Positions 2,293 through 18,471 of a stretch of 64,000 nt of DNA are shown in pieces. How positions within the stretch are numbered: position 1 is the first letter of the stretch; every line of letters starts with the position of its first letter. Source of the stretch: Candidatus Omnitrophota bacterium (GTDB lineage: Bacteria; Omnitrophota; Gorgyraeia; DTHP01); the NCBI GenBank assembly GCA_023819145.1, contig JAMWCW010000001.1, positions 66,400 through 130,399 on the forward strand, read 5' to 3'. The notes under the pieces were generated by a model. That model had not been told where the DNA came from. It saw only the letters and a list, made by a program, of their open reading frames with translations, and did not search any database. The translations under genes and the position numbers were made by a program.

Positions 2293-2399
2293 TAAACGAA
2301 ACTAAAATTCCTTTATCTAAGGATGCGGTAACTAATCTTTCCTTTAAGCTTAAATTTAGAACCCCTATAATTAAATACATAAAGAAGGTGTTTATACAA

Positions 2400-3905: not shown

Positions 3906-3912
3906 AACGCAG

Positions 3913-4187: not shown

Positions 4188-6611
4188 ATGAAAGGTTCTA
4201 AAATAAAATTTTTCTTAGTTTCTTTTTTGGTGCTTTCTTTTAGTTTTGGTTTTTCTTTTTCCGGTGATTCTTCTTTTTTATTGAGAAGACTCAGAAGTGT
4301 TCCTGTAGGTTATTTACCATCTTCAGGGATAGAAGTGGTAGATGCATTAGATGGTATGGTGAAGGTAGAGATGATTTTGCCTCAAACTTTTGAAGAGAAT
4401 CCGGCGTTAGTTCCGACATTATCGGCTTTTTTTCGTGCTTTAAGCTATAACCGCGATATAGAAATCTCAGCGATTGTATCTCCTGTTTCTGCGGAAGAGT
4501 TGGCTAGAGCCATTCAGTCAAATTATGCGTTAGGTCCGTGGAGAGGGGTTAATGTAAGTGCTGAAGGAAACACCTTAATTATAAGAGGAATGGATACAGA
4601 GGTAAGAATACCTGTTTCTACAAGTTCTACAAGATCCACCGGCGGAGCCGATGTTTCTATCTGTCTAGGAGATGTCTCCCGTGCTCCTTCGATTCTTTCC
4701 GGGAAAAGAGCGCTTTATTTTCCTGTAGGAAGCATAACAACGCAAGAAGGAATAACTGCTTTACCTGGTTCTATTGGAGAATGGGATAGTGCGGTGGTTA
4801 ATGTTTCGGAACTTACAGGTTTAGCAATAGCTTTACAAGCTCTGAGAGAAGAATTAGGAGGTTTTGGGATGGTGGGTAGAATAGATGTATTTTGTCCGGA
4901 AGGGGATATGACTATTGTGCCTTCGGCAAAAGAAGCCGATGTTTCTGATTACCTTTCTTCTTTAGGGATAACCTCCCCGGGAATGAGAGTAACTCTTCAT
5001 ACCACAAAAATATCCGGAGATATCAAAGGAGCAAGACTGGTAGGAATAGTAATTACTTTTCCCAGTAAAGTTACCAAAGAAGATTTAATAAAAATATTTG
5101 AAGCGCATCCTTTATTAGGAGTTGCTCCTGAAAAAGATTCTACTTCGGCAATGTTTACCAACCCCTATGAGACAAAACTTTTTTATCTCAATACCGGTAA
5201 GACTGTGGTAGACGAGCTAAAAGATGGTTCTACCATGATAACTCTGCGTGGTTGGGTAGGGGATTATTCTTACGCAGGAATGATGATTTCTGCCATCACT
5301 GAGGTGGGACAGCGTTTGTCGGAGTTAGGTATTCTTTCTACCCAGAAGGCAAGTGTAATCTATCCGGCAGTAGAGCATCCTAAAGTTCAAGTTCTTGCTC
5401 AACCGAAGAGAGTTATGGTCAATGGGGGAGGAGGGAGAATTGGAGTAAATATTTTGAGAAGTCTTATCGGAGATCCTAATTTTGATGTGGTGGCGGTTAA
5501 CGGAGTGCGTAGTGCCGAAGCCTTGCGTCAGGGATTACTTTATGACGAAATACTAGGTCCTACGCGGGCGGTAATAGAAACCGGCAAGCAGAAGTTATTG
5601 GACGGGAGAGAGATAGAGTTTGTGACTATAAATGGCCATAAAATATATGTGTTTAATGCCCGTGAAGATGAAGAAGTGCGTCAACTTCCGTTAGGTGATT
5701 TGGGGATTGAGTATGTTTTAGAAGCAAGTGGCAATTATACTCAAACAAAGGATTTTGAACCTTTCTTTCAAGCAGGAGCTAAATATGGCTTTATCAGCGC
5801 TCCCGCAAAAGATAAAACTACTCCAGAGATTGTTCCCGGTGTAAATCCTGAAACTTTTGTAGCGATGGCAAGAGAAGGACTATCTCAAGTGGTTTCTTTT
5901 GGTTCATGTACTACAAATAATGCTGCTCCTGCCATAAGAGCAGTGCTTGATCTTTTAGAAGCAAGAGGATTGCAAGTAGAAGAGCAATTAGAAAAAGTCA
6001 CTTTAGAGACAGTTCATGCAGTAACCCAGACCCAAGCACATCTTTTACCAATTCAAATCAGAGACCCAAATAAAGAGCCTGAGAGAGCAAGAGCAGGAGC
6101 ACTTAATATTGTAGTTTCTAGTACTGGTGCAGCTAAAGTTATTCCTAAAATCATTGAAGAAATTGACAAAATGGAGGGAATAGCTTTGCGCGTGGGCAAT
6201 CCTAATGGTTCGGAATCGCAGATTTCTTTCTATTTAGATGGTAAATCGCCCGTGACCAAGGAAGAAATAGTTGCTTATTTACAAGAAAGAGCGAGAACTG
6301 ACCTCTTTAATATTTTAAGAGTAAATACTGGAGAAAAATTAGATTCCCTAGCGATAAACGGTTCAGATATTACTTCCATTGTGGAAGCTTCAACGGTGAA
6401 AGTTACTCCTCGTTATAATGATAAAGGAGAATATGTTGGCGATATGATCGTGCTTAATACTTGGTATGATAACGAATGGAGTTATACTCAACAGTACTTA
6501 AGGGGAATTATTATGTTTACCCTATTACTGGAGAACCCTGGTTTAACCCCCGAAGAACTCTTGGTGCGTAGTGACAGATTGGGTGTACATGCCTATGCTC
6601 CTATCCCATAG
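4188..6611 (+). CDS. glyceraldehyde-3-phosphate dehydrogenase-like protein: degenerate N-terminal GAPDH-like copy plus intact C-terminal GAPDH domain, with RR leader
   Basis: C-half: MVNGGGGRIGVNILR (NAD-binding GxGxxG), SCTTNNAAP (active-site SCTTNCLAP with second Cys replaced by Asn), NIVVSSTGAAKVIPKI, WYDNEWSYT all GAPDH hallmarks; N-half: LGPWRGVNVSAEGNTLIIRGMDTEVRI and TLRGWVGDYSYAGMMISAI echo the corresponding GAPDH segments but lack the catalytic motifs; start at ATG 4188 after RBS aaaggaggg; leader FLVSFLVLSFSFGFSFSG...FLLRRLRSVP. Confidence 0.75.
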   Translation: MKGSKIKFFLVSFLVLSFSFGFSFSGDSSFLLRRLRSVPVGYLPSSGIEVVDALDGMVKVEMILPQTFEENPALVPTLSAFFRALSYNRDIEISAIVSPVSAEELARAIQSNYALGPWRGVNVSAEGNTLIIRGMDTEVRIPVSTSSTRSTGGADVSICLGDVSRAPSILSGKRALYFPVGSITTQEGITALPGSIGEWDSAVVNVSELTGLAIALQALREELGGFGMVGRIDVFCPEGDMTIVPSAKEADVSDYLSSLGITSPGMRVTLHTTKISGDIKGARLVGIVITFPSKVTKEDLIKIFEAHPLLGVAPEKDSTSAMFTNPYETKLFYLNTGKTVVDELKDGSTMITLRGWVGDYSYAGMMISAITEVGQRLSELGILSTQKASVIYPAVEHPKVQVLAQPKRVMVNGGGGRIGVNILRSLIGDPNFDVVAVNGVRSAEALRQGLLYDEILGPTRAVIETGKQKLLDGREIEFVTINGHKIYVFNAREDEEVRQLPLGDLGIEYVLEASGNYTQTKDFEPFFQAGAKYGFISAPAKDKTTPEIVPGVNPETFVAMAREGLSQVVSFGSCTTNNAAPAIRAVLDLLEARGLQVEEQLEKVTLETVHAVTQTQAHLLPIQIRDPNKEPERARAGALNIVVSSTGAAKVIPKIIEEIDKMEGIALRVGNPNGSESQISFYLDGKSPVTKEEIVAYLQERARTDLFNILRVNTGEKLDSLAINGSDITSIVEASTVKVTPRYNDKGEYVGDMIVLNTWYDNEWSYTQQYLRGIIMFTLLLENPGLTPEELLVRSDRLGVHAYAPIP

Positions 6612-6644
6612 AAAATAAGATTTATTCTCGCAAAAGGAGGAATT

Positions 6645-8798
6645 ATGCGGATAAGCAATTTAGTAAGAGTTATTTTTATTTTCTTTTCTGTTCAATTTTC
6701 TCTCTTTTCTGGTGAACTCCGGAATGGAGTAATCTTAATTTCTCGTCGGGCTAAGAATCAAGAATTTTTAATAGTGTCTCCCTTTCAAAAATTACTCTCT
6801 CTTTTAGGAAACGGATTACAAACTGGTCTTAACTTTGATGAAGGGATAGAACTTTTTCGCCAGATAGAGAGATTGCGCTTGTCTGTGGAGGAAACAGAAG
6901 ATTTTTATTCTTTTATAGCGAATAATCTTGTTGATTTTTTGGTAGTTTCAGAAAGGTCAGGAATTAGAATTGACCTTCTTGATATTCGCGACCTTTTCTC
7001 GGCAGCACAGAACTATGCTTTGGGGATAAGAAGAGATGAGTTGGGATTAAATAGGGGAGGAAGGGCTCTTTTAAATAAGATGTTAAGTGTTAAAGATATA
7101 AAAATCATTGGTGAACAGCTTTTAGAAGCACTTGACTCCTCTTTTAACAATGGCAGGATTGATAAAGCTAATTACCTGAAATATAGAGAGCGTCTTGAAA
7201 TTATTACTCTGATGGCTGGACTCTGGGCAACTTCACCAGTGAGTTCTAAGAGTATGCTTAGAGCTTTAGAAGGAGGAAATACCGCCATTATGGCCGCAAA
7301 TACCCAGATGTCGGTAAGTATTCCCGGACTTATGCTTGCTTCTTTAGAATTTGGAGCTCCCCTTATGTTTGAATCGGCAATGAGTGAAGTCAACCTGCAA
7401 GACCCAAATGACCCTGCGAAAATAGCTATTGGTTATATCGGTAGAAATCCCCAGGAATTTGCGGAAGTAGTAAGATACTATGCCTTTCTTTTAGGTTACG
7501 ACCTGCCTTATGCCATTCATGCTGACCACACCACAGTAAGTAAAGATACAGCGGAGGCAATTGACTATGCTAAAAGACTTAATCAAGCACAATTATCTGC
7601 AGGATATACCTCTTTTGCTATTGATCCTTCATCTCTTCCCGCAGTGAGAGAAGATACCCAGTTAAAAACGCTCAATGCCATGGAGGTGGAAGAGTTCTTG
7701 AGGCTTGGTTTTGATGAAAGTTTAGCAAAAACTTTAGCCGCGCGAGAATTTAAAAAATTAAAAGAACTCTCTTCTATTGAAGGAATAGACGAGAGAAAGA
7801 TCAATATTCTGATGGACTATATTGAGTCACAGATTCTAGTTGCAGTTTTGAATAAAATGGGGTATGAAGATTTGATGAGCATTCCACGTATGCCTGGAAC
7901 TATTGCCCGTGCCATTGTAGAGAACGGTCCGTTTACTTCCTTGGAAGAGCTAAAAGAAATTGATGGGCTGGGTGATGATGATATTTTCTATATTGAGGGA
8001 ATAGACAATGCGGTTCTTTTGTTTGATTATTTAAAGGCTTACTTAGATTTAAAGCGGATTATTGAGATAAATATAGAATTAGCAAAATTTATTCCTGAAG
8101 AGTTTGGTTTAGAGGTGGAAGTTGGTCATATTGGAAGAGTTGATCCACTGACGGGAGAGGCGGTGATGACTACTCCTTTAGAAGCGGTAGTTTTGATTGA
8201 AGCATTACAAAGATTTGGGATAAAACCACAGCTTTTGGCGGTAAATAATGGAACAAAACACGGAATTGTCTTCATTGGGGGTAAAGAGGTTCCTACGACT
8301 GTAGATGTAAAAAGAACCGATGAAATAGCGAGCGCTATAAGACCTTTAGGAGTTTCCCTTGCTCAGCACGGAACTACTGGTACGCCTTTTGAGGTTATAA
8401 AAGATCAACTTGCGGGAAATATCCTTAAAGCCAATGTAGGAACCGAGTGGCGGAGAACTGTTTTAAGAAGCATGCCTTTGGATTTATTCTATAGAATGGT
8501 AGAGTGGACAGTGGAAGAAGAAAAAAGGAAAGCTCCAGAGAAATTTTCTGGACTTCTTCCGGTAAGAAGTTATACACGTGAACAACTGCTAAGTTCAGAG
8601 TGTCCTTACTATGCTTTAATTATTGATCCTATAAAACGGGCAATAGGAGTTTTTAGAGCTGAAATTGATAATATTTCTGGTGAGGATTTGGATTTAATTG
8701 TAGAAACAACCCGCGAAGTAGCAAGAGAGTATTTTACTGCTTTTAATGCTCTAGAGAAAGTTTGGAAGATTGTAAAGTATTTGGGTTGGGGATGGTGA
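6645..8798 (+). CDS. class II fructose-bisphosphate/tagatose-bisphosphate aldolase-like protein with inserted HhH motif and RR leader
   Basis: Zn-ligand-bearing motifs AIHADHTT, EVEVGHIG, AVNNGTKHGIVF, LAQHGTTGTP...ANVGTEW align to class II FBA (HTDH, ELG, GNVHG, FHGGSG); ComEA-like helix-hairpin-helix IPRMPGTIARAIVENGPFTSLEELKEIDGLGD inserted; leader VIFIFFSVQFSLFSG...ILISRRAKNQ; RBS aaaaggagg. Confidence 0.55.
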   Translation: MRISNLVRVIFIFFSVQFSLFSGELRNGVILISRRAKNQEFLIVSPFQKLLSLLGNGLQTGLNFDEGIELFRQIERLRLSVEETEDFYSFIANNLVDFLVVSERSGIRIDLLDIRDLFSAAQNYALGIRRDELGLNRGGRALLNKMLSVKDIKIIGEQLLEALDSSFNNGRIDKANYLKYRERLEIITLMAGLWATSPVSSKSMLRALEGGNTAIMAANTQMSVSIPGLMLASLEFGAPLMFESAMSEVNLQDPNDPAKIAIGYIGRNPQEFAEVVRYYAFLLGYDLPYAIHADHTTVSKDTAEAIDYAKRLNQAQLSAGYTSFAIDPSSLPAVREDTQLKTLNAMEVEEFLRLGFDESLAKTLAAREFKKLKELSSIEGIDERKINILMDYIESQILVAVLNKMGYEDLMSIPRMPGTIARAIVENGPFTSLEELKEIDGLGDDDIFYIEGIDNAVLLFDYLKAYLDLKRIIEINIELAKFIPEEFGLEVEVGHIGRVDPLTGEAVMTTPLEAVVLIEALQRFGIKPQLLAVNNGTKHGIVFIGGKEVPTTVDVKRTDEIASAIRPLGVSLAQHGTTGTPFEVIKDQLAGNILKANVGTEWRRTVLRSMPLDLFYRMVEWTVEEEKRKAPEKFSGLLPVRSYTREQLLSSECPYYALIIDPIKRAIGVFRAEIDNISGEDLDLIVETTREVAREYFTAFNALEKVWKIVKYLGWGW

Positions 8799-8868
8799 GA
8801 TCTTATAATTCTTCTTAGTAATTGAAGTTGTCTAAAAATTATTTGCTACTAAAGGAGGGATTGTAGAG

Positions 8869-10407
8869 ATGAGAAAAATATTTTTAGTTCTTTCTTTTTG
8901 TTTATTGTTTTTTCTATTTTGTCCTTTAAATTATAATTCTCAAGAATATTTTTCTTTCCGTAGAATTCATCGTAATCTTTTAATCACTGACCCACAACTT
9001 TTAGATGAGGCATATTTGTTGAATATCCTCCATATTGGGGGTGGATTGGGTTCCATTGTAGTCGATGCTCGTAGCGGAGAGCATATTGCGAGATTGAGTA
9101 TCTCTGGGAAAAGAATTATTAGTCGTGATGGTTTTAGCGTGCAGGATATTTTAAAAGGGATAGAAGAAGGGCGATTCGTTACTGTTACTCATCAAGAATT
9201 AGTTCAGAGGGCTCTTGAACATAGAGAGAATTGTGTGCTTGTCTTTACAGGTGGTGGAGATTCTGCGGGTATAAATGCAGTAATCAGTTCTGCAGTCCAA
9301 GGATTAAAGAAATTGAAACCAGAAATGACTGTTTTGGGTTTAAGAAACGCAGGAGCCAGTCTGGTGGTTTCTCCGGAAGAATTTCCCGAACATCTTGTTC
9401 TGATAGATGAATTATACGCTGAAGATGTTGCGGAACAGGGCAGTACTTTTTTGGGCTCTTCAAGGTATAATCCTTTTAAGAAAGCAGAAGATATGGCAAA
9501 GACTCTGGAAAACATAAAGGGTTTTGGAGCGTGGATTTCTACAGGAGGAGATGATAATCTTAAGGTTGCCCAGAGATTATCCCAGGAAAATCCGGAAATG
9601 GTGGTTTTGGCTACTGCCAAAACCATCGATGGTGATGTGATGGTTAATGGAAGAGGAGTGCAATGTTTGGGATTTGATTCAGCAGCGAAGATGTATCGGG
9701 ACGAAATTTATTCTATTGCCCAGAGTGCCAAAGCTCATGGAGAGAAAGAACAACCGCTGGTAATTGTGGTTGAGGTGTTTGGAAGGGATTCCGGAAGGTT
9801 GGCTTTTGAATCGGCGCGCCCCGATGACTTTTCCGGATTGAATGCGGAGGAAATTCGGAGACAAGTTGACCTTGCAGGAACGATAATGATCGTTGTTCCT
9901 GAGGAGAAACATGCTGACGGGACTCAAGCGACCATTGATGAATTAGTAAAAAGGGCAGAGGAAATTATTGCCCGCGAAAATGCAGTGGTAATAGTTGTTG
10001 CTGAAGGTTATCGGCCAGGAGATATGCCGGATATTGTAAAAACTTCTTCTAAAACAGATGCCTACGGACACGTTCAACTTGCCGGCATTGGTTCCGCGCT
10101 TGTTCCGGTTTTAGAAAAAAGAATTCCTAAAGCAAAAGTAAGAACCTCTCTTCTTAACTATGAAGGAAGGGGAACGCTTCCCAGCGAATACGATGTTACA
10201 TTGGGTTATAAGATTGGTTGGGAAATGGCTGAACTAATAGCCCAAGGAGTGACGGGTGGAAGGTTTGTAGGATATTTCAATGAAATGGATGCCCGTTTTG
10301 AACTGCCGGTGGTGCTGGAATTGGTGAATATCTCTAACCAGAATACCTTAGAGCTTTATCCCCGTCAAATATTAGAGAGGAATAGGGTTTTGGTGCTTGA
10401 TAGGTAA
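8869..10407 (+). CDS. pfk: 6-phosphofructokinase (ATP- or PPi-dependent) with RR leader
   Basis: VLVFTGGGDSAGINAVI, GSTFLGSSRYNPF, WISTGGDDNLKVAQRL, AKTIDGDV, PLVIVVEVFGRDSGRLAFESA match PfkA motifs closely; leader LVLSFCLLFFLFCP...YFSFRRIHRN; RBS aaggaggg. Confidence 0.8.
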   Translation: MRKIFLVLSFCLLFFLFCPLNYNSQEYFSFRRIHRNLLITDPQLLDEAYLLNILHIGGGLGSIVVDARSGEHIARLSISGKRIISRDGFSVQDILKGIEEGRFVTVTHQELVQRALEHRENCVLVFTGGGDSAGINAVISSAVQGLKKLKPEMTVLGLRNAGASLVVSPEEFPEHLVLIDELYAEDVAEQGSTFLGSSRYNPFKKAEDMAKTLENIKGFGAWISTGGDDNLKVAQRLSQENPEMVVLATAKTIDGDVMVNGRGVQCLGFDSAAKMYRDEIYSIAQSAKAHGEKEQPLVIVVEVFGRDSGRLAFESARPDDFSGLNAEEIRRQVDLAGTIMIVVPEEKHADGTQATIDELVKRAEEIIARENAVVIVVAEGYRPGDMPDIVKTSSKTDAYGHVQLAGIGSALVPVLEKRIPKAKVRTSLLNYEGRGTLPSEYDVTLGYKIGWEMAELIAQGVTGGRFVGYFNEMDARFELPVVLELVNISNQNTLELYPRQILERNRVLVLDR

Positions 10408-10461
10408 AGAGATAACTTATTTTATTTGGCATTTTTAAAACAAATAGGTTTCTGAGTATTT

Positions 10462-11253
10462 GTGCGATATTTAATAATAAGAAAAATAGTAATTATTTTA
10501 TTTTTTTTGGCTCTTTCTCAGACAATAGTATTTTCTCCGGTGTATGCTCGCAGAGTGAAGTGGTTTGGGGGTGAGTTATCACTTCTTCAAGAAAATAATT
10601 TTTTTGTAGGGCTGGAAGATAGTTTGAAAGAGTTTGTTATTAAATTCGAGGATGCCAGAGTAATAAAATCTATCTCTCAGCCAGAGCCATTAGAAGGGGA
10701 TGCCCCTTTTGATTCCGGAGAAAAGATAGTTACCTATAAAATTGAGGTTTTGACAGATAAAGGGGTTAGCAGTTTAGTAGTGAAATTGGTAAGTAGCAGA
10801 GAAGCAAAAAATTTCTTAACTGCTTCTTTAAGGGGTGTTTCTCCAGGTCCAGCGATTTTTGTAGAACAGGGGTGGGAGAACAGAAATGGCGTTAGCGAAG
10901 GTTATTTAATCTATCGGTTCTTTGAAGGAGTGAAGTTAAGCGAAATTTGTAATCAGGAACAGGCAATTGATATCCTAAAGAATAATCTTTGGATTATTGA
11001 AGAATTAGGTATTAAACTTGCGAATTTAAAGAAAGCAGGGGTAAAATATAGAGATTTTTTATATTATAATACGCTTATTGATTTAGAAAAGAGAGCTCTT
11101 GTGATTGTTGATTACGGTGATAGGCATTGCGCTGATCCCTTTATTCAGGTAAGAGATTGGTGGTTGCCTTTGATGTTCAATACTGAACCCGAGATATTAG
11201 AGAAAGTTATTAGTTTATTTGTAGAAGTTTATCAGAGAGAATTAAATAATTAA
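10462..11253 (+). CDS. protein-kinase-like fold protein (candidate secreted kinase) with RR leader
   Basis: VVKLV (VAIK-like Lys), KYRDFLYYNTLID (HRDxxxxN catalytic loop), VIVDYGD (DFG-like); leader IVIILFFLALSQTIVFSPVYARRVKW; GTG start. Confidence 0.35.
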   Translation: MRYLIIRKIVIILFFLALSQTIVFSPVYARRVKWFGGELSLLQENNFFVGLEDSLKEFVIKFEDARVIKSISQPEPLEGDAPFDSGEKIVTYKIEVLTDKGVSSLVVKLVSSREAKNFLTASLRGVSPGPAIFVEQGWENRNGVSEGYLIYRFFEGVKLSEICNQEQAIDILKNNLWIIEELGIKLANLKKAGVKYRDFLYYNTLIDLEKRALVIVDYGDRHCADPFIQVRDWWLPLMFNTEPEILEKVISLFVEVYQRELNN

Positions 11254-11325
11254 TGAGATTTGCTACTCTTAAAGAAATTATCTTGCGGCGAGAAATGATC
11301 ACAATTTTAAGGGGGAGGAAGTGAT

Positions 11326-13551
11326 ATGGGTATGAGGAAAATATTCATATTTTGTTTTATTCTCATAAAATTTGCCATCTTTTCATTTTCTTTTAATTTT
11401 TCCTCTTTAGAAATTATTGCGCATCGCAGAACTAAAATTTCTCCTTTAGTAGCAAATCATGAGTCTGTAAGGAAAGTTTTAGTAGATATTTTCTACAGAG
11501 CAGCAGGATTTCAAGGGGCTTTGCGCAGCGGAACAGCACAAGAACGGCGAGATATTTTAAACCAACCTGAGGTAAAGCGCGCTGTTTCTTTGCTCCAATA
11601 TGGTTTGAGTTTAGGAAGTACAACTTTAAGAAATCAAGTGGCTTATCTTGCTGAACGTTTAGGGATAAGCGCGAATCCCGCAGTAAATATTGGAATCTAT
11701 CAGGGAGAAGCCGAAATTTTTGATATTCTGGGAAATATCTTTATGCCTGAGGGAGATGGTTTAGTCTTTTATCAAAAAGGAACTGATAATCCCGAAACTC
11801 TTTTTAAGCCTTTTTTGGCTCGCTATGGAGCCAAAATATTTGAATTTGACCCTTACTTCGTAGAGCGCAATTCTACTCCCTCCTATTCTACAGAATTAAG
11901 CGGTTTTGAAGCGCTGATTTCTTTAGCTATTCAAGAGGGACAAAATCCGCGTTTTATCTATCTTAGCGGAAAAGGTTTAACCGAAGCGCAAGCAAGAAGA
12001 ATTTATGCTTTGGCAGAAACTTACAATCTTATAATTATTGAGGATATTACCAACGCAAACCCTACAGATTATCTACTTTCTGCAAACGATTCTCAAGGGA
12101 GAGTAATTTCCATCGGAAATTTTGACAAGTATTTAGGGGCTGCAAATCCTTTAAGTTATGCCATTGCGGGAGAAGAGATTATGCGTCTTATGGAAATTGC
12201 TATTGGCGGGATAAGTCTTCATCCCAATGCTTTTATTCAGCCGATAGTCTCGGAAATTTTAGCCCAAAACGGTATACCTTTCTCGGTAAATGTTTCCTAT
12301 AAACCCATCACTCTTTCTGAGAGTGTAAAAGCAATTCTTGCTTCAACAGGTGCAGACCAGCGCTTAAAACCCTCCATCATTAGAGAAATTCTTAAAGGGG
12401 CAGTTTCGGATATGGTGCGTATGGGAGGAGGGGTTCCTGCCGAGGAGTTCTTCCCTTATGTGGAAATTGCCCAGATTATAGAAAATATGAGCCCTGAGGA
12501 ATGGGAAAAGGTAATGGCTGGGGACCCGGCGATTAATTTAGAGTTGCGCAGTGTTTTTTGCCGGTGGCTTGAAGAAAGAGGAATAAAAGCTGACCCCCGT
12601 CAGGTTTTGGTAACCAATGGGAGCCAGCAGGGTTTGGATTTATTGGGAAGATGGGTGGGAAAAGAAGGAGTTGTTTTTGCCGAATCTCCTACCTATGTAG
12701 GAATGATTACGGGAGTTGCTCCTTACGGAGGCCTTCCTTATGGTAGAAATATTCGGCATTGGGATTTACGCACACTCACTGGATTAGAGAATTTAGAGAA
12801 AGAAATTGAAGAGAACTATCGAGGTAAAAAAATTGTTTTATATGTTACACCAAACTTTGGTAATCCTCCTTCAGGGAATATGTGGACGATTAGCGAAAGA
12901 AGGAATCTTCTGGCTTTTGCCCAGAGGATGCGCTTAAAGGGATACGATTTGCATATTGTAGAAGATGATCCTTATGGAGAACTAAATTATACTGGTCAAA
13001 GAATTGTAGATATCAAAGAGTTGGATACAAACGGAACAGTAATTTATTTCAACTCCAATTCCAAAGTCTTTTCTCCGGGAATGCGTGTGGGGTACATTGT
13101 GGCTGATGAGAAAATAATTCATGAATTTGCTTCTCTTATGGATGAAGTAGGTTCTTTTGTTCCTACACTCCCCCAACTTATTATTACTAAGTTTATCGAG
13201 ACAGGAGCGATGGATAGACATATTGAATTTTTGATTGGTGAATATTCAAAACGTGCACGGGCAATGGAAGAAGCTTTAGAGGAATTTATGCCTGAAGGTG
13301 TAACCTGGACAAAACCTGAGGGAGGGTTATTTATTACTTTAACTGTTCCCTGGGATATAGATTTTATGGCCATGCTTGAGGAGGCCAAAAATTACGCGAT
13401 TCCCTTTAACTTTGTTCCGGGTATCGCCTTTAGTGTGGATGGCTCAAGTGCTCATAAAATTCGTCTTTGCTTTTCCACAGAGTCTGAAGAAAGAATAACC
13501 TTAGGTATTAAGGCTTTTGCGGAGTTGATAAAAAAACACCTTGGCCAATAG
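11326..13551 (+). CDS. PLP-dependent aminotransferase (class I/II fold) with N-terminal degenerate aminotransferase-like domain and RR leader
   Basis: C-half: LVTNGSQQGLDLLG, NSNSKVFSPGMRVGYIV (SxSK...R PLP-lysine motif); N-half has similar architecture (IYLSGKG...IIIEDI, SIGNFDKYLGAANP) without the full motif; leader FIFCFILIKFAIFSFSFNFSS...IIAHRRTKIS. Confidence 0.5.
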   Translation: MGMRKIFIFCFILIKFAIFSFSFNFSSLEIIAHRRTKISPLVANHESVRKVLVDIFYRAAGFQGALRSGTAQERRDILNQPEVKRAVSLLQYGLSLGSTTLRNQVAYLAERLGISANPAVNIGIYQGEAEIFDILGNIFMPEGDGLVFYQKGTDNPETLFKPFLARYGAKIFEFDPYFVERNSTPSYSTELSGFEALISLAIQEGQNPRFIYLSGKGLTEAQARRIYALAETYNLIIIEDITNANPTDYLLSANDSQGRVISIGNFDKYLGAANPLSYAIAGEEIMRLMEIAIGGISLHPNAFIQPIVSEILAQNGIPFSVNVSYKPITLSESVKAILASTGADQRLKPSIIREILKGAVSDMVRMGGGVPAEEFFPYVEIAQIIENMSPEEWEKVMAGDPAINLELRSVFCRWLEERGIKADPRQVLVTNGSQQGLDLLGRWVGKEGVVFAESPTYVGMITGVAPYGGLPYGRNIRHWDLRTLTGLENLEKEIEENYRGKKIVLYVTPNFGNPPSGNMWTISERRNLLAFAQRMRLKGYDLHIVEDDPYGELNYTGQRIVDIKELDTNGTVIYFNSNSKVFSPGMRVGYIVADEKIIHEFASLMDEVGSFVPTLPQLIITKFIETGAMDRHIEFLIGEYSKRARAMEEALEEFMPEGVTWTKPEGGLFITLTVPWDIDFMAMLEEAKNYAIPFNFVPGIAFSVDGSSAHKIRLCFSTESEERITLGIKAFAELIKKHLGQ

Positions 13552-13608
13552 ATTTTTTTGTAATATTTATATCTCCCTTTGGTTATAGATAATAGGGGGG
13601 CGAGAAAG

Positions 13609-14769
13609 ATGAAGAAATACTTAAGAATTAGAGGGATATTTATTTTAGTAGTATTTGTAGTATTTTTATTTACGCTTTTGATTCCTGTAAAACATTCCTT
13701 GGCTTATCCCAGGAGTTATCCTTATTTAGTTTCTAATTCATTACCAGCTTTTTCCGCGCGAGGGTTTAATGAAGCGCTCTTAGCGCGAGTTTTGCGCGAG
13801 ATTATCATTATCTATAAATTCTTGGCTCAAATCGAAAGGGTTCTTAATGAAAGAGGAGAAAATGATTTTCCATCTTTAGGTAGGGTCATCGGAGACAGAC
13901 CTCAGGAGAGAGAAAATTCCCAAAATACTCCCCCCAAAAGAAGTAATTTAAGGGAAGAACCTGCGGGTAACCGTCATCTAGACCCAGAAAATCCTTCGGC
14001 AAAACTACCAGAAGGGTCATCTTCGTCACCTGCTGGTTCTCTAGGAAAGATAAAGATTGCGATTATTGATATTGACTCTAAGCACGCCGCAGAAGTAAAG
14101 GCGGTAATGGAAGAGACAATTCGGCGTAAGAATCCCGGGGCAAAAGTAGAAATTCGTACCATTATTCTTCCTGGCAAATGGCAAAGGGATGGTTCTAAAG
14201 CGGTGGCTACCAGTGATATTTTAGACGCTTTTGCAGAAGCCAAAGCTTGGGGCGCAAAGGTAATCAATATGAGTATTGGTGCACAAGGAGGTGTAGACGG
14301 TATAGTGCTTAGTGCCTTACGCGACCTTTCTGAAAGTGGCATTCTGGTAGTAGCGGCATCAGGTAATGAAGGTAGTTATGATGCTTGGGGGCAAGCTGGC
14401 CGATATGTCTTATCAGTGGGGGTAAGAGGTGCACCTTATTCCAATACCGCTGATTTATATGTCGATTGGGGAGAGCTTCCACCTGGATTAGAAGGCACAT
14501 CTTTTGCTGCTCCGATTATTGCTGCGGAAGCGGCTTTAGCCTGGTTAGAAAACCCTTCCCTTAACTTGGCAAGTTTGCCTTCTCAATTAGGTTCACGGGA
14601 CACAGTTTATGCCCGGAGTAATCCTCCGCAAAGAAGTTCGCAGGGGTTTCACACTTCGGCAATAGAGTTTGTAAGGCCACCTGTTGTTTTTTATACGCCG
14701 GTGGAAGAAATGCCTTTTTACGAACAGAGTTTTTATTCGCCTGTTGGCTGTTTTCCGTCTTTTTGGTAA
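13609..14769 (+). CDS. subtilisin-like serine peptidase (S8 family), signal-anchored, no canonical HGTH motif seen
   Basis: AIIDIDS (Asp box), VINMSIGA, VAASGNEGS (oxyanion Asn), GTSFAAPIIAA (catalytic Ser box); start at ATG 13609 after RBS agggggg; N-term LRIRGIFILVVFVVFLFTLLIP; no RR motif after the hydrophobic segment. Confidence 0.55.
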   Translation: MKKYLRIRGIFILVVFVVFLFTLLIPVKHSLAYPRSYPYLVSNSLPAFSARGFNEALLARVLREIIIIYKFLAQIERVLNERGENDFPSLGRVIGDRPQERENSQNTPPKRSNLREEPAGNRHLDPENPSAKLPEGSSSSPAGSLGKIKIAIIDIDSKHAAEVKAVMEETIRRKNPGAKVEIRTIILPGKWQRDGSKAVATSDILDAFAEAKAWGAKVINMSIGAQGGVDGIVLSALRDLSESGILVVAASGNEGSYDAWGQAGRYVLSVGVRGAPYSNTADLYVDWGELPPGLEGTSFAAPIIAAEAALAWLENPSLNLASLPSQLGSRDTVYARSNPPQRSSQGFHTSAIEFVRPPVVFYTPVEEMPFYEQSFYSPVGCFPSFW

Positions 14770-14876
14770 TTTTTGTTTGTTTTCTTCTAAATAAAGGGGA
14801 CACTTACTACCGACTCTTCATTGGTTGTAAGAAAGTAAAAGATATTAAACTTGAATTCCGAGGAGGTATTATATAA

Positions 14877-16064
14877 ATGAAAAATAGTAGAGGAAAGATT
14901 TATGTTATGTTTTTGGGTTTGTTATTTTTCTTTCTTAACTCATTATTATATTTAGACTTATCTGCGGGATGCTCTTTCCGGCGAATCAAAACTCAACCTG
15001 CCAAAGAATCTGCGCTGGTGCTTTTTTTCCACGAATTAGGTAGAGAAGATATTTTTTTAGTGGGAGGAAAAGGGGCAAATTTGGGAGAACTTTCGCATAT
15101 TGCCGGGATAAGCGTTCCCGAGGGGTTTGTAGTTACCACCACCGCTTTTCAAAAATTTTTAGATGCCAACCCTGGATTACAAGATAAAATTATCAGGATT
15201 ATAAATAGTATAGATTGGGATACCCCTTCCAGTATAAACTCTGCTGCGGAAAAGATAAAAGAAGCGGTTTTGCGTGCGAACATGCCGCGAGAGATTATTG
15301 AGATGATTAAAGCAGGTTATGGCCATTTAGAAGAGATCTCCGGAATAAAGGATGTGCCCTGTGCTGTAAGAAGTTCGGGAGTTGCTGAGGATTCTCCTAA
15401 CTTTTCTTGGGCAGGTCAATTCCGCACTGAATTAAATCAGAGGGGAATATATCAGGTTTTAGAGGCGGTTAAATTAATCTGGGCAGAGTTGTATAATCCT
15501 GATGCCCTTACCTATGGACATCAGAATGGTATCGACCCGCGCAAATTTTCTATGGGAGTGGTAATTCAGCGGATGATAAATTCAGAGAAATCAGGAGTGG
15601 CTTTTGGACTGGAGTCCGATACAGGTTTTCGTGCCAATCCCGGAGGAATGGAAGGAGTTTTTTATATTGAAGGGGTTTATGGTTTAGGTGAAGGGATGGT
15701 GCAAAATATTCAAGAACCTGATGGATTTTTGGTAGTAAAGATGCCTAATGGTGAATTTAAAATTATTGAACGCATTTTCGGTTCCAAAAGAGAACAGATA
15801 GTTTATCGGTCTGGAATGAGTGGGACAGAGAAAACTTCGGTTCCCGAAGAATGGCGTCAGAGATGGGTTTTTTCAGAAGCAGAGGTGTTAGAGATTGCTC
15901 GTGCAGTTTTTGCCTTAAATAGCCACTATAATCATCCCCAGGATGTAGAATTTGCCTGGGAAGGAGGAAAACTATACATATTACAATCACGCAATGAGAC
16001 AGTTCATGCAGATAAACCAGTAGATTTAATTGAATGGAGAAAGTTTAGAATTAACCTTAAATGA
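14877..16064 (+). CDS. PEP synthase/pyruvate phosphate dikinase N-terminal nucleotide-binding (ATP-grasp) module, separate ORF, with RR leader
   Basis: LVGGKGANLGELSHIAGISVPEGFVVTTTAF matches PEP-utilising enzyme N-terminal signature; RBS gaggagg; leader VMFLGLLFFFLNSLLYLDLSAGCSFRRIKTQP. Confidence 0.75.
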   Translation: MKNSRGKIYVMFLGLLFFFLNSLLYLDLSAGCSFRRIKTQPAKESALVLFFHELGREDIFLVGGKGANLGELSHIAGISVPEGFVVTTTAFQKFLDANPGLQDKIIRIINSIDWDTPSSINSAAEKIKEAVLRANMPREIIEMIKAGYGHLEEISGIKDVPCAVRSSGVAEDSPNFSWAGQFRTELNQRGIYQVLEAVKLIWAELYNPDALTYGHQNGIDPRKFSMGVVIQRMINSEKSGVAFGLESDTGFRANPGGMEGVFYIEGVYGLGEGMVQNIQEPDGFLVVKMPNGEFKIIERIFGSKREQIVYRSGMSGTEKTSVPEEWRQRWVFSEAEVLEIARAVFALNSHYNHPQDVEFAWEGGKLYILQSRNETVHADKPVDLIEWRKFRINLK

Positions 16065-16083
16065 AAAAAGGGGGAGATAAATA

Positions 16084-18471
16084 ATGAAGTGGTTACATGT
16101 TAAAATTTTTTGGAGTATTGCCTTTTTAATTATTGCCAGCCTACTTTATGTTGATAATCTTTTTATGTTTTCTTCTTTAGATTTTATTACAAGAAGAGTA
16201 TTAACTCCTTCTTATACAGATTCTCCTTCGGTTGAGGTTCCCTCCGGTTCTCCTAAAATAATTGCCCGTGGAGAAGGGGTAGGTGCTAAAGGAGCGGGGG
16301 TAGGACGAGTGGTTATCATTGATGAAAATAGTTCCATCCCTATTCGTGAGCAGGCAATGCGTGTGCGCGAAGGAGATGTACTTGTTGCTTATCGCACCGA
16401 TCCTTCTTTGGTGGATGCCATGCGCCGAGCAGGTTTGGTGATTACTGAAATTGGAGGGAAAAATTCTCATGCTGCGATTGTCGCTAGAGAATTTAATTTA
16501 AATGCGGTTATTGGTGTGCCCAATGCTACGCGTATTTTTGCTCAAGGGCAGGTAGTTACTGTTGATGCTGAGCATGGAGTCATTTATGCTGGAGCTTTGC
16601 CGCTTGAAGAAGATAGTGTTTCCTATCGCGTGAGTGAACTTCCGTCTACGAGCCCTGTAAAGATAGGGATACTTTCCTTTGATACTGCTCGGGTGAGAGC
16701 GATGTTTCCTTTGGGTTTGTATTCTGATTTTTACGGTATAGGGCTGATGCGTGCAGAGTTTGCTTTACAAAATATTGGCATCCATCCGTTAGCAATATTG
16801 GATTTTGATAGAGGTACGCTTAGAGATGCAAGGCTACAAACAGAAATTACGCAAAAAATCAAAGGCTATGCGAGTGCGCGAGACTATTACATCTCAAAAC
16901 TTTCTTCTGCAATATTTTCCAATTCGCTTATTCTACATGAGGGGCAAAAGGTTATTTACCGCACCACTGATTTTAAAACCAACGAATATGAAGATATGTT
17001 AGGAGGGGATGTTTACGAGCATAAAGAGCCCAACCCCATGATGGGCAATCGCGGTTTACAGCGAATGATTAGTCCTGAATACCGGGAAGCATTTGATATG
17101 GAACTCGAAGCATTTTTACTTGCCTGGAAAGATAATCCGGGAAAGATTTCTATCATGGTTCCTATGGTACGCACTCCCCAAGACCTTCTGACTTTTCGTC
17201 AAATTCTTGAGGGAAAAATAAGGAGTATGGGGCTCTCGGGTATGCCTGAGGTAGTAATGATGTATGAATTGCCCGCGAATGTTTTTCAGATAGAGGAATT
17301 TATTCACGCCGGTATAAATGGTATTTCCATTGGTTCAAATGACCTGACACAATTTATTCTGGCAGTAGACAGGGACAGTGGTTTATTTAGAGAAGGAGGT
17401 AGAGAAGAATATGATGCCGTAAATAGAGCAGTATTGCGTGCTATCGGCATCGGTATAACTTCTTCTAAAGCCCGCGGTGTAAAAACAGGTATTTGTGGGC
17501 AAGCGCCATCAGACCATCCAGATGTTTATCCTGCAATTCTTACTGCTTTAGGAATAGATTCTATAAGTGTTACTCCCGATGTGTTTCATAAAGTGGTAGA
17601 AGCAGTAGCCCAAGCACAACAAAATCCTTCTTTTGGGATGAGATACCTTTCGGGTTTAGATTTATTTTTAGGCTACGATACCCAGACTAATCCCAAACGA
17701 GAATTAAAGAAGATAATTAGTTCTGATGATATACTTCGGAGTATTGGCATTCATCCTTTAGCCTTACTTGCCTTTGACCGGGGAAGTAGTTTATTGAGTG
17801 ATACGGCGATAAGTAGGCAGATTGTTTCTTTTGCCGGAGAAGAAACTGCAGAACGGGCTTACTTTGACCGTGTATATAGGGCGGTAAAGAATGCTTTACT
17901 TATGGATGGAGAGGTAGTTTATAGAACAGGAAGTTTGCTCAGTACCGATTATAAAACGCTTGTGGGAGGAGATATTTTTGAAAAAGAAGAAGCAAATCCC
18001 TTATTGGGTGCGTTTGGAATGTACCGCCTGCTCAGATATGGTTCAGAAGATGGCGCTTTGAGTATGCGTGATATTTTTAACATAGAGATGGATGCAGTTT
18101 TAAAAGCTGTGCGGGATACCGGTAAAGTTATTCATTTAGAGTTAGATATGGTGCGCACTTTTGGAGAATTACAGGAGGCAGTTTCTGTGATTAATGAGGC
18201 AATACGCCGTACAGGGATTTCTCCAGATAAGGTGAAAATTGGTCTAAATGTTTCTACTCCGGCAAATGTTCTGCTTATTTCTGATTTTATTAACCAAGGG
18301 AGATTAAGTTTTGTGAGTATCGACGAAAAAAGGTTAGCCTGTTATCTTTTGGGGGTGGATTCCTTGAGTATGGTTAGCCCCGAGGCTATTGAACGAGCCC
18401 TATATATACCTCGTCAACTGGTTTATACAGCATTAGCTCAAAAGGGAATCCCTTTAGTTAACTCCCCCTAA
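16084..18471 (+). CDS. PEP synthase/PPDK phosphohistidine swivel domain plus PEP/pyruvate-binding TIM barrel, followed by a degenerate second TIM-barrel copy, with RR leader
   Basis: GGKNSHAAIVAREFNLNAVIGV (mobile His domain), GLMRAEF, MVPMVRTPQD, SIGSNDLTQF (TIM-barrel motifs); second copy GIHPLALLAFDRG, LDMVRTFGEL, LSFVSIDEKRL lacks NDLTQ; leader IAFLIIASLLYVDNLFMFSS...FITRRVLTP. Confidence 0.75.
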   Translation: MKWLHVKIFWSIAFLIIASLLYVDNLFMFSSLDFITRRVLTPSYTDSPSVEVPSGSPKIIARGEGVGAKGAGVGRVVIIDENSSIPIREQAMRVREGDVLVAYRTDPSLVDAMRRAGLVITEIGGKNSHAAIVAREFNLNAVIGVPNATRIFAQGQVVTVDAEHGVIYAGALPLEEDSVSYRVSELPSTSPVKIGILSFDTARVRAMFPLGLYSDFYGIGLMRAEFALQNIGIHPLAILDFDRGTLRDARLQTEITQKIKGYASARDYYISKLSSAIFSNSLILHEGQKVIYRTTDFKTNEYEDMLGGDVYEHKEPNPMMGNRGLQRMISPEYREAFDMELEAFLLAWKDNPGKISIMVPMVRTPQDLLTFRQILEGKIRSMGLSGMPEVVMMYELPANVFQIEEFIHAGINGISIGSNDLTQFILAVDRDSGLFREGGREEYDAVNRAVLRAIGIGITSSKARGVKTGICGQAPSDHPDVYPAILTALGIDSISVTPDVFHKVVEAVAQAQQNPSFGMRYLSGLDLFLGYDTQTNPKRELKKIISSDDILRSIGIHPLALLAFDRGSSLLSDTAISRQIVSFAGEETAERAYFDRVYRAVKNALLMDGEVVYRTGSLLSTDYKTLVGGDIFEKEEANPLLGAFGMYRLLRYGSEDGALSMRDIFNIEMDAVLKAVRDTGKVIHLELDMVRTFGELQEAVSVINEAIRRTGISPDKVKIGLNVSTPANVLLISDFINQGRLSFVSIDEKRLACYLLGVDSLSMVSPEAIERALYIPRQLVYTALAQKGIPLVNSP

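What the first reader, a model, noticed from the sequence alone, without database searches (positions are those of the whole stretch)
4188..18471. Recurring architecture: enzyme fused to a degenerate tandem copy of itself (GAPDH-like, aminotransferase, PEP-utilising TIM barrel)
GAPDH-like protein (813 aa): residues about 60-400 mirror GAPDH segments (LGPWRGVNVSAEGNTLIIRGMDTEVRI vs LGPTRAVIETGKQKLLDGREIEFVTINGHKIYV; TLRGWVGDYSYAGMM vs VLNTWYDNEWSYTQQ). They lack the GxGxxG and SCTTN motifs, which the C-terminal copy retains.

Aminotransferase (741 aa): a motif-poor N-terminal aminotransferase-like half precedes a C-half with GSQQGLDL and the SxSK...R lysine motif.

PEPS-C ORF: a complete TIM barrel (GLMRAEF...GSNDLTQF) is followed by a second copy (GIHPLALLAFDRG...DMVRTFGEL) missing NDLTQ.

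Three independent covalent pseudo-dimers in one gene block suggest these oligomeric enzymes have been converted into single-chain heterodimers with one catalytic and one regulatory or scaffold half. This fits an unusual targeting or assembly constraint, such as a 1:1 leader-per-dimer stoichiometry.
Basis: partly seen in the sequence, partly recalled or inferred. Interest (0 to 1): 0.6.

Follow-up and report, generated by a model that had tools for sequence, protein, structure and literature searches.

The report
Enzymes fused to dead self-copies
In an uncultured Omnitrophota bacterium, three central-metabolism enzymes that normally work as pairs are each encoded as one chain carrying a working copy plus a catalytically dead copy of itself, within a block of enzymes that all bear an unusual N-terminal membrane/export tag.

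Summary

- **GAPDH-like protein (4188-6611).** The N-half folds as a complete GAPDH (AlphaFold pTM 0.84; Foldseek E about 1e-17 against GAPDH structures). It lacks GxGxxG, the catalytic Cys and the S-loop.
- **Aminotransferase (11326-13551).** The N-half is a copy of the PLP-binding large domain (hhalign 99.1%, E 8e-19). It has lost every residue that binds PLP within its own domain. It keeps the one tyrosine (LQYG) that canonical dimers donate to the partner's active site, and the catalytic half has lost that tyrosine.
- **PEP synthase (16084-18471).** It has a second, truncated TIM barrel (BLASTP 2e-30) without NDLTQ or the catalytic Cys loop.

All three dead halves are conserved in relatives. 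The tandem GAPDH is very rare: about 12 proteins, always fused.

The single-chain pseudo-dimer reading is well supported for the aminotransferase and untested for GAPDH (full-length pTM 0.49). The "one leader per dimer" idea is only partly supported. Double-barrel PEP synthases also occur without a leader, and other leader-tagged oligomeric enzymes in the block are not duplicated.

Every enzyme in the block carries a conserved hydrophobic leader followed by an RR motif. This echoes the glycolytic domains reported in giant Omnitrophota proteins.

The parts
4188..6611 (+). Tandem GAPDH gene (ORF call 4170-6611; likely start 4188, 807 aa)
   Evidence: There are 12 homologues, all 766-890 aa with the same architecture.
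4188..4304 (+). Leader of the tandem GAPDH: KGSKIK n-region, about 19 uncharged residues, then FLLRRLRS
   Evidence: AlphaFold predicts a helix at residues 10-26 followed by a disordered stretch to residue 60.
4353..5324 (+). Dead GAPDH copy (residues 62-385). Complete GAPDH fold, but no GxGxxG, Cys replaced by Glu, S-loop deleted
5403..6608 (+). Catalytic GAPDH copy (residues 412-813): NGGGGRIG, SCTTN, TVHAVT
   Evidence: TIGR01534 scores 194 bits, below the 367-bit cut-off.
11326..13551 (+). Tandem aminotransferase gene (741 aa)
11527..12291 (+). Dead aminotransferase copy (residues 68-322). Large domain only. Keeps LQYG; lacks GSQQ, Asn, Tyr, Lys and Arg
12361..13548 (+). Catalytic KAT/LysN/MocR-type aminotransferase copy (residues 346-741): GSQQ, NFGNPPSG, EDDPYGEL, SNSK, PGMRVGY, IRLCF. 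The trans-acting Tyr is lost (VMAGDP)
14877..16064 (+). PEP synthase N-part (leader plus ATP-grasp PPDK_N domain). Split off as its own gene in this genome
16084..18471 (+). PEP synthase C-part, with its own Shine-Dalgarno sequence and its own inserted leader (residues 1-40, FITRRV)
16681..17628 (+). Catalytic PEP/pyruvate TIM barrel (residues 200-515): GLMRAEF, GSNDLTQF, GICGQ
17761..18468 (+). Dead, truncated second TIM barrel (residues 560-795). No NDLTQ and no Cys loop
2271..3785 (+). Context: leader-tagged PGK (ALRRSK). Normally a monomeric enzyme; not duplicated. The likely start is the Met near 2400
6645..8798 (+). Context: leader-tagged class II aldolase with a helix-hairpin-helix insert. 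Not duplicated
8869..10407 (+). Context: leader-tagged PFK (GGDD motif). Not duplicated
10462..11253 (+). Context: leader-tagged small protein with a weak Bud32/RIO-type kinase match
   Evidence: (E 5e-4).
13579..14769 (+). Context: membrane-anchored S8 subtilase-like protein. It has a hydrophobic N-terminus but no RR motif
287..1210 (+). Context: leader-tagged methyltransferase (SARRVK)
1362..2210 (-). Context: leader-tagged protein of unknown fold (SLRRIK), divergently transcribed. It is conserved next to the block in L003
60162..61886 (+). Leader-tagged asparaginase-like protein (CFARRI), lying outside the block

Best explanation
The window comes from a Candidatus Omnitrophota genome.

It carries a conserved block of highly divergent paralogues of central-carbon enzymes: PGK, GAPDH, class II aldolase, PFK, PEP synthase and a KAT/LysN-type aminotransferase. 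A methyltransferase, a kinase-like protein and an S8 subtilase-like protein sit with them. Each of these except the S8 protein begins with a hydrophobic leader followed by a hydrophobic-RR-[VISL]-[KQ] motif; the S8 protein has the hydrophobic leader without RR.

Three of these enzymes, whose canonical forms are obligate oligomers, arose by intragenic tandem duplication followed by loss of catalysis in one copy.

The dead copy most likely takes the place of the second subunit, giving an intramolecular pseudo-dimer with one active site per chain. Assembly would then not depend on protein concentration or on finding a partner.

**Shown:** the duplications, the loss of catalytic motifs in one half, conservation of the dead halves, and the complementary retention and loss of the trans-acting Tyr in the aminotransferase.

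**Inferred:** that the halves pack through the canonical dimer interface, that each chain acts as a functional unit, and that this is an adaptation to the membrane tethering or export implied by the leader.
For: - **Duplications:**
- **Catalytic motifs confined to one half:**
- **Aminotransferase complementarity.** LQYG is invariant in 6 of 6 N-halves, where every cis PLP residue and the small domain are gone. The C-halves of the window protein and P0011-P0013 keep the cis residues but have MAGDP/MRGDP/INGSP where single-domain relatives and PDB 1WST/1X0M have LQYG. In KAT II that Tyr (Tyr74) is donated by the opposite subunit. The more distant L005 protein still has the Tyr in its C-half, which would fit an intermediate stage.
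- **Purifying selection on the dead halves:**
- **The pseudo-GAPDH domain is never stand-alone.** A profile search of 1.84 billion representatives found only tandem proteins of 798-890 aa.
- **The block is syntenic in other Omnitrophota contigs** (L003, L005, L007).
- **PGK, a monomeric enzyme, carries the leader but no duplication**.
- **Established knowledge:** fold-type I aminotransferases have active sites at the dimer interface (PMC4926479). PEP-utilising enzymes dimerise through the TIM-barrel domain, and GAPDH is an obligate oligomer.
Against: - No coordinates were available, so the interface could not be inspected.
- The full-length GAPDH model has pTM 0.49, so the relative position of the halves is not confidently predicted.
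- The GAPDH N-half lacks the S-loop, which in canonical tetramers lines the neighbour's NAD pocket. Any interface cannot therefore be fully canonical.
- The aminotransferase N-half lacks the small domain.
- Leader-tagged PFK, aldolase and FBPase are not duplicated.
- Double-barrel PEP synthases occur without a leader, so export or tethering cannot be the general cause.
Confidence: 0.68

Rival explanations
1. The dead halves are regulatory ligand-binding modules rather than structural stand-ins for a second subunit. Mammalian hexokinase I (N-half) and eukaryotic PFK-1 (C-half) work this way: the dead copy keeps a remnant of the substrate or cofactor pocket and uses it for allosteric control of the live copy.
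For: The dead halves are well conserved. The aminotransferase N-half is almost as conserved as the catalytic half (55-77% against 53-83%). The GAPDH N-half keeps a complete two-domain fold. This reading does not exclude pseudo-dimer packing.
Against: Ligand-binding motifs are specifically the parts that were lost: GxGxxG in GAPDH, all PLP-phosphate and pyridine ligands in the aminotransferase, and the Mg/PEP ligands and Cys loop in PEPS. The one active-site residue that is retained, the aminotransferase Tyr, is the one that serves the partner's site.
Confidence: 0.15
2. The dead halves are spacers, docking modules or intramolecular chaperones tied to the leader. They could act as a stalk holding the catalytic domain away from the membrane, a platform that assembles the tagged enzymes into a membrane-bound metabolon, or a pro-domain removed after export.
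For: In GAPDH and the aminotransferase the dead copy sits directly after the leader and before the catalytic copy. All enzymes of the block share the leader. Omnitrophota are known for multi-enzyme, membrane-associated giant proteins with repeated domains (10.64898/2026.06.07.730766; 10.1101/2023.11.21.568195).
Against: In PEPS the dead barrel is C-terminal, far from the leader, and it occurs in leaderless proteins. The retained trans-Tyr in the aminotransferase points to a catalytic contribution rather than a passive spacer. No cleavage site between the halves is evident.
Confidence: 0.14
3. The extra halves are artefacts: mis-assembly, gene-calling run-on or decaying pseudogene remnants.
For: None found. 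The only gene-call issue is the start of the GAPDH ORF (4170 against 4188).
Against: The same architectures recur at 22-83% identity in independent assemblies from JGI, ENA, NCBI and Logan. The reading frames are uninterrupted, and there are invariant motifs inside the dead halves.
Confidence: 0.01

Closest known systems
Mammalian hexokinase I and eukaryotic PFK-1 (classic duplication-fusion enzymes with one non-catalytic half)
   Same: Intragenic tandem duplication of a sugar-metabolism enzyme, in which one half keeps catalysis and the other loses it but is retained.
   Different: In those enzymes the dead half became an allosteric effector site. Here the ligand-binding motifs are erased, and in the aminotransferase the dead half keeps only the residue that completes the partner's active site. 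The enzyme families (GAPDH, aminotransferase, PEPS barrel) and the bacterial, leader-tagged context are also different. This comparison rests on textbook knowledge and was not tested here.
Giant multi-enzyme proteins of Omnitrophota (Archaeovorins; 'multi-enzyme metabolic cluster' giants)
   Same: Same phylum. TPI, GPI, FBPase, PGM, aldolase and PPDK/PEP-utiliser domains are attached to signal peptides or transmembrane helices, and their localisation is unresolved. Pfam domains repeated within one chain are common, and S8/C39 peptidase domains are associated with these proteins.
   Different: The window proteins are ordinary-sized (263-813 aa), separate genes, each with its own leader. Neither preprint mentions the RR motif. 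The passages read from them do not describe dead/live tandem pairs of GAPDH or aminotransferase, and GAPDH is not mentioned at all in the 2023 preprint.
KAT II / LysN / PH0207-type aminotransferases and the aminotransferase domain of MocR/GabR regulators
   Same: The C-half is a clear member by sequence (1WST E 5e-63; PdxR-type model 205 bits) and has all PLP residues. As in MocR, an extra N-terminal module precedes the aminotransferase domain.
   Different: The N-terminal module is not a winged-helix DNA-binding domain. It is a degenerate aminotransferase large domain. The catalytic domain has lost the trans-acting Tyr that homodimers need.
Long 'phosphoenolpyruvate synthase' proteins of Candidatus Desulforudis audaxviator and relatives (P0052, P0051, about 1100 aa)
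   Same: Same PEPS followed by a second degenerate barrel (36% identity over 91% of the window protein).
   Different: They have no leader and are not split. The window version is split into two genes, each with its own leader.
Type I GAPDH (GapA/GapB)
   Same: The C-half has the fold, GxGxxG, Cys/His and an S-loop. The N-half has the fold.
   Different: Scores are far below the equivalog cut-off (194 against 367 bits). The protein is a tandem with a dead copy. Asp32 is replaced by Gly in the live copy.

Membership tests
Type I GAPDH (TIGR01534; Pfam Gp_dh_N + Gp_dh_C): C-half | Rossmann GxGxxG, catalytic Cys149 (SCTTN) and His176 | tested here: met
   NGGGGRIG, GSCTTNN and TVHAVT are invariant across 9 homologues. 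Pfam matches at residues 414-525 and 606-745.
Type I GAPDH (TIGR01534): C-half | Score above the NCBIfam equivalog cut-off | tested here: not met
   194.3 bits against a cut-off of 367.2. This is a divergent paralogue.
Type I GAPDH: N-half | GAPDH two-domain fold | tested here: met
   Foldseek E 1e-17, TM 0.61-0.75, about 360 aligned columns, GAPDH hits only. Sequence profile E 5e-5.
Type I GAPDH: N-half | NAD-binding GxGxxG, catalytic Cys/His, S-loop | tested here: not met
   There is no glycine motif. S-E-L-T replaces S-C-T-T, and the S-loop segment is reduced to CPEG.
Fold-type I aminotransferase, KAT/LysN/MocR subgroup: C-half | PLP Lys (SxSK), Asp/Tyr (DDPY), Asn, phosphate-binding GSQQ, and Arg residues | tested here: met
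   Alignment with single-domain relatives. 1WST E 4.7e-63.
Fold-type I aminotransferase, KAT/LysN/MocR subgroup: C-half | Own copy of the Tyr donated to the partner subunit (LQYG; KAT II Tyr74) | tested here: not met
   MAGDP, MRGDP and INGSP occupy the position in the window protein and P0011-P0013. The Tyr column is a gap against 1WST.
Fold-type I aminotransferase: N-half | Large-domain homology | tested here: met
   hhalign 99.1%, E 8.4e-19. PDB profile search E 1.3e-22.
Fold-type I aminotransferase: N-half | PLP Lys and other cis ligands; small C-terminal domain | tested here: not met
   The Lys position is K/R/S/H/K/Q across the six members. GSQQ, Asn, Tyr and Arg are absent, and there is no small domain.
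PEP synthase (TIGR01418 / NF005057) | ATP-grasp domain, phospho-His mobile domain and PEP/pyruvate barrel with NDLTQ and catalytic Cys, on one chain | tested here: inconclusive
   All domains and motifs are present but split over two genes (284 and 451 bits against a cut-off of 598). Relatives P0046-P0049 have them fused.
Single-chain pseudo-dimer (dead copy replaces second subunit) | Two homologous halves on one chain, with one lacking catalytic residues | tested here: met
Single-chain pseudo-dimer (dead copy replaces second subunit) | Halves pack through the canonical subunit interface | tested here: inconclusive
   The GAPDH full-length model has pTM 0.49, and model coordinates are not exposed. 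For the aminotransferase there is only the indirect evidence of trans-Tyr complementarity.
Omnitrophota giant multi-enzyme proteins / Archaeovorins | A single polypeptide of more than 10,000 aa | tested here: not met
   The block proteins are 263-813 aa.
Omnitrophota giant multi-enzyme proteins / Archaeovorins | Central-carbon enzyme domains attached to a signal peptide or transmembrane segment, in Omnitrophota | tested here: met
   Literature.
Tat (twin-arginine) signal peptide | The S/T-R-R-x-F-L-K motif precedes the hydrophobic region | tested here: not met
   RR lies about 4-19 residues after the hydrophobic stretch (usually 8-15), at residues 27-44, and no second hydrophobic region follows.
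Cleavable Sec signal peptide (signal peptidase I) | Positive n-region, h-region of 7-15 residues, and an A-x-A type site | tested here: inconclusive
   The n-region is met. The uncharged stretch is long (mostly 13-29 residues), and no A-x-A site is seen by eye, whereas ordinary secreted ORFs of the window have VEA|K, AFA|EE or INA|ED. No predictor such as SignalP was available.

The most novel reading that the evidence does not exclude
The block is a complete, separately targeted central-carbon module: the unfused counterpart of the multi-enzyme giant proteins of other Omnitrophota. The leader plus RR tag would send or tether its enzymes to a compartment other than the bulk cytoplasm, such as the membrane surface, the periplasm or the prey interface. 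The tandem dead/live enzymes would be an adaptation to that route. Obligate dimers were converted into self-sufficient single chains because partner subunits cannot be found reliably, or cannot all be tethered, after translocation. The fresh leader inserted where the PEP synthase gene split shows that the tag behaves as a portable, selected module.
Probability: 0.2. Interest if true: 0.85.

Novelty: new variant of a known kind. Interest (0 to 1): 0.6.

Why it matters
Duplication followed by inactivation of one copy is a known way to make pseudoenzyme-containing proteins. I found no report of a tandem dead/live GAPDH or aminotransferase in the literature searches. The tandem GAPDH is among the rarest architectures seen: about 12 proteins, and 6 hits in 1.84 billion cluster representatives.

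The aminotransferase gives an unusually clean natural example of subunit complementation frozen into one chain. The dead copy keeps only the residue that completes the partner's active site, and the live copy has lost that same residue.

The shared leader plus RR tag on at least 13 unrelated enzyme families bears on an open question raised for Omnitrophota giant proteins: are their glycolytic domains really outside the cytoplasm? These small, separately encoded, expressible proteins make that question experimentally testable.

Tried and rejected
- **Plain BLASTP of N-half against C-half** was too weak for GAPDH (E 0.069) and for the aminotransferase (E 0.027). Profiles and structure prediction were needed.
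- **hhalign for GAPDH.** With 9 sequences it gave only E 0.026. Global mode failed, and local mode with 12 sequences gave E 9.7e-4.
- **More duplicated enzymes in the block.** I looked at the aldolase, the asparaginase-like protein and the L003 FBPase. None was found. Their extra length comes from insertions or extensions.
- **The two unknown leader proteins, 1362-2210(-) and 10462-11253.** I tested whether they are paralogues of each other; they are not. The first has no PDB or Pfam match.
- **Packing of the two GAPDH halves.** The full-length AlphaFold model was inconclusive (pTM 0.49).
- **The GTDB genome scan** for the pseudo-GAPDH half gave only 2 loci.
- **Literature searches** for tandem GAPDH, pseudo-dimeric aminotransferases, long PEPS and membrane-anchored glycolytic enzymes in Omnitrophota found nothing specific.
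- **S8 subtilase as an RR-cleaving maturase.** I considered this, but its catalytic His region appears to be missing (and direct reading of the sequence), and it is not syntenic in L003, L005 or L007. It is not part of the favoured model.
- **A Tat signal** is rejected because RR follows the hydrophobic stretch.
Full report
**What is in the region**

The window is from a Candidatus Omnitrophica/Omnitrophota metagenome-assembled genome. The GAPDH-like and aminotransferase proteins are 100% identical to NCBI MAG proteins on a 221-kb contig.

From position 287 to 18471 almost every gene lies on the + strand. The block encodes the following:

| Coordinates | Product |
|---|---|
| 287-1210 | methyltransferase |
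| 1362-2210, minus strand | unknown protein |
| 2271-3785 | PGK |
| 4188-6611 | 807/813-aa GAPDH-like protein |
| 6645-8798 | class II aldolase |
| 8869-10407 | PFK |
| 10462-11253 | small kinase-like protein |
| 11326-13551 | 741-aa aminotransferase |
| 13579-14769 | S8 subtilase-like protein |
| 14877-16064 and 16084-18471 | PEP synthase, split into two genes |

All of these enzymes score far below the NCBIfam equivalog cut-offs. GAPDH-I scores 194 against 367 bits, PFK 157 against 430, and aldolase 40 against 343. They are a divergent paralogous set, not ordinary housekeeping copies.

**GAPDH**

Pfam sees GAPDH only in residues 414-745. I collected 9, and later 12, full-length homologues. 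All are 766-890 aa with the same layout.

I modelled residues 45-405 alone. The model is confident (pLDDT 78.6, pTM 0.84). Foldseek against the PDB returns only GAPDH chains, with E 1e-17 to 2.5e-16, TM 0.61-0.75, about 360 aligned columns and 12-17% identity.

Sequence evidence agrees:
- The N-half profile hits PDB GAPDHs at E 5e-5 over nearly their full length.

The N-half has no glycine-rich NAD motif. It has S-E-L-T where GAPDH has S-C-T-T, and its S-loop is deleted. The C-half keeps NGGGGRIG, SCTTN and the catalytic His.

A profile search of 1.84 billion cluster representatives found the pseudo-GAPDH half in only six proteins, every one a tandem of 798-890 aa. The domain never occurs alone.

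**Aminotransferase**

Profile-profile comparison of residues 42-345 with the C-half, enriched with single-domain relatives, gives probability 99.1% and E 8.4e-19 over 236 collinear columns. The N-half profile on its own finds KAT/LysN-type aminotransferase structures at E 1e-22. The copy covers only the large PLP-binding domain.

An alignment of all halves with single-domain relatives shows a striking complementarity.
- **N-halves.** They have lost GSQQ, the Asn of the NPxG motif, the Tyr of DDPY, the SxSK lysine (K/R/S/H/K/Q across the six members), the following Arg, and the whole small domain with its substrate Arg. They keep an invariant LQYG.
- **C-halves of the window clade.** They keep all the lost residues, but have MAGDP, MRGDP or INGSP where relatives and PDB 1WST/1X0M have LQYG.

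In human KAT II this Tyr (Tyr74) belongs to the subunit opposite to the one providing Asn202, Tyr233 and Arg399 (PMC11582277). The active sites lie at the dimer interface (PMC4926479). The position of the Tyr in LQY is confirmed independently by the database relatives and by the 1WST/1X0M alignments.

The simplest reading is one composite active site built from both halves of the chain. The more distant L005 protein still has the Tyr in its C-half, which would fit an intermediate stage.

**PEP synthase**

Barrel 1 and barrel 2 of ORF 16084-18471 match at E 2e-30. Barrel 2 lacks NDLTQ and stops before the catalytic CGQ loop.

Two further points come from homologues.
- In other Omnitrophota (P0047-P0049; P0046 is a partial record) the enzyme is one chain of about 1150 aa with a single N-terminal leader. 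In the window it is split. The second gene has its own strong Shine-Dalgarno sequence and a newly inserted leader of about 55 aa ending in FITRRV, which is absent from the fused relatives.
- The double-barrel form also exists without any leader, for example in Candidatus Desulforudis audaxviator (P0052) and in P0051. This duplication is therefore older than the leader and independent of it.

Barrel 2 is closer to barrel 1 of its own family (103 bits) than to ordinary PEPS barrels (60-78 bits), as expected for an intragenic duplication.

**Are the dead halves functional?**

They are conserved, though less than the live halves for GAPDH and PEPS.

| Protein | Dead half, % identity to window | Live half, % identity to window |
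|---|---|---|
| GAPDH | 22-68 | 39-80 |
| Aminotransferase | 55-77 | 53-83 |
| PEPS | 28-66 | 43-80 |

The genes stay together in other contigs:
- L003: GAPDHx2, aldolase, FBPase, ATx2.
- L005: ATx2, GAPDHx2, PFK, PEP-utiliser.
- L007: GAPDHx2, PFK.

**The leader**

Every enzyme of the block, the asparaginase-like protein at 60162, and the corresponding proteins in L003 and L005 share one N-terminal layout; every tandem GAPDH whose N-terminus is on record has it too:
- a positively charged n-region (usually +2 to +4);
- an uncharged stretch, mostly 13-29 residues;
- then, at residues 27-44, the motif hydrophobic-RR-[VISL]-[KQHR], often followed by T/S-x-P.

At least 13 unrelated protein families carry it. 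Ordinary secreted proteins of the same window (19002, 30848, 50751) have short signal peptides with A-x-A sites and no RR. Shine-Dalgarno sequences lie in front of the leader ATGs, which shows that the leaders are translated. AlphaFold predicts a helix at residues 10-26 followed by a disordered linker containing RR.

It is not a Tat signal, because the RR comes after the hydrophobic stretch. Whether it is a signal anchor or a cleaved export signal, and on which side of the membrane the enzymes end up, could not be decided here. All of these enzymes need cytoplasmic cofactors (ATP, NAD(P), PLP, SAM), which makes a simple periplasmic location puzzling.

**Relation to what is known**

Two preprints report central-carbon enzyme domains (TPI, GPI, FBPase, PGM, aldolase, PPDK) inside giant Omnitrophota proteins. 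These domains are associated with signal peptides or many transmembrane helices, and their localisation is unresolved. Repeated Pfam domains within a chain are common there (10.1101/2023.11.21.568195; 10.64898/2026.06.07.730766). The window looks like a small, unfused version of the same theme.

Neither preprint mentions the RR motif. The passages I read do not describe dead/live tandem pairs, and my literature searches found no tandem GAPDH or tandem aminotransferase. Conceptually the closest precedents are hexokinase I and eukaryotic PFK-1.

**Verdict on the interpretation**

The architecture is real and recurrent. The pseudo-dimer mechanism is well supported for the aminotransferase, plausible for PEPS (a barrel-mediated dimer in the canonical enzyme) and untested for GAPDH (full-length pTM 0.49).

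The proposed cause, one leader per dimer, fits GAPDH and the aminotransferase: every tandem member whose N-terminus is on record is leader-tagged, and monomeric PGK is tagged but not duplicated. Two findings contradict it as a general rule. Double-barrel PEPS occurs without a leader, and the tagged PFK, aldolase and FBPase are not duplicated.

Noticed in passing
window 287-18471 and 60162-61886; L003 8800-18394; L005 7758-16614: Every enzyme of the block begins with a positive n-region, an uncharged stretch (mostly 13-29 residues), and then hydrophobic-RR-[VISL]-[KQHR](T/S)xP at residues 27-44. At least 13 unrelated families carry it in three or more genomes. Ordinary secreted proteins of the same window do not. 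It is neither Tat-like nor a classical A-x-A signal peptide.
   Followed up: partly
window 16040-16210: The PEP synthase gene is split here, whereas it is fused in relatives P0046-P0049. The downstream part has acquired its own Shine-Dalgarno sequence and a new leader plus RR module of about 55 aa, absent from the fused proteins. The tag therefore behaves as a portable unit.
   Followed up: yes
window 4170-4190: The ORF call starts at 4170, but the Shine-Dalgarno sequence AAAGGAGGG lies at 4173-4181. The true start is probably the ATG at 4188 (807 aa, as in the NCBI protein).
   Followed up: yes
window 5490-5510 (GAPDH C-half, VVAVNGV) and 9540-9560 (PFK, TGGDDN): The live GAPDH copy has Gly where canonical enzymes have Asp32, a residue that excludes NADP. 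The PFK has GGDD, the signature I recall for PPi-dependent PFKs. Together with PEP synthase, and with FBPase in L003, the block looks gluconeogenic or reversible rather than glycolytic. This rests on recalled residue rules and was not tested.
   Followed up: no
window 13579-14769: The S8 subtilase-like protein has an N-terminal hydrophobic anchor and a long low-complexity tether. Its Asn (SGNEG) and Ser (GTSFAAP) motifs are present, but the segment that should carry the catalytic His (HGTH) appears to be deleted. It may be a pseudoprotease.
   Followed up: partly
window 7845-7980 (aldolase residues 401-445): A ComEA-like helix-hairpin-helix module is inserted inside the class II aldolase barrel. 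The same insert occurs in the L003 orthologue. The protein also has an N-terminal extension of about 150 aa of unknown fold.
   Followed up: partly
window 60162-61886: A leader-tagged asparaginase-like protein has its N-domain (residues 131-299) and C-domain (residues 504-557) separated by an insertion of about 200 aa. No internal duplication was detected.
   Followed up: partly
window 62079-63134; L005 18052-22460; L007 9813-13708: The Fer4_22 gene at the end of the window matches the first gene of a hydrogenase-like cluster (NADHdh, Oxidored_q6, Complex1_30kDa; NiFeSe_Hases seen in L005). That cluster lies a few genes downstream of the tandem-GAPDH block in L005 and L007.
   Followed up: no
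window 19002-29443: Two large secreted proteins (1378 and 2015 aa) with ordinary signal peptides and almost no Pfam matches lie just downstream of the block.
   Followed up: no
window 29623-30276: An IS200/Y1-type transposase-like gene lies between the large secreted proteins and a TolC/HlyD/2xAcrB efflux cluster (31839-42295). The TolC-like protein carries a weak match to an AMIN domain.
   Followed up: no
window 44883-49025: A trehalose cluster: OtsA-like GT20, trehalose phosphatase, DUF5752 and a TreT-like synthase.
   Followed up: no
whole window: Nearly all genes are on the + strand, and GC skew is positive in every 2-kb bin (0.09-0.33). This suggests that the 64 kb lies within one replichore with strong co-orientation.
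   Followed up: no
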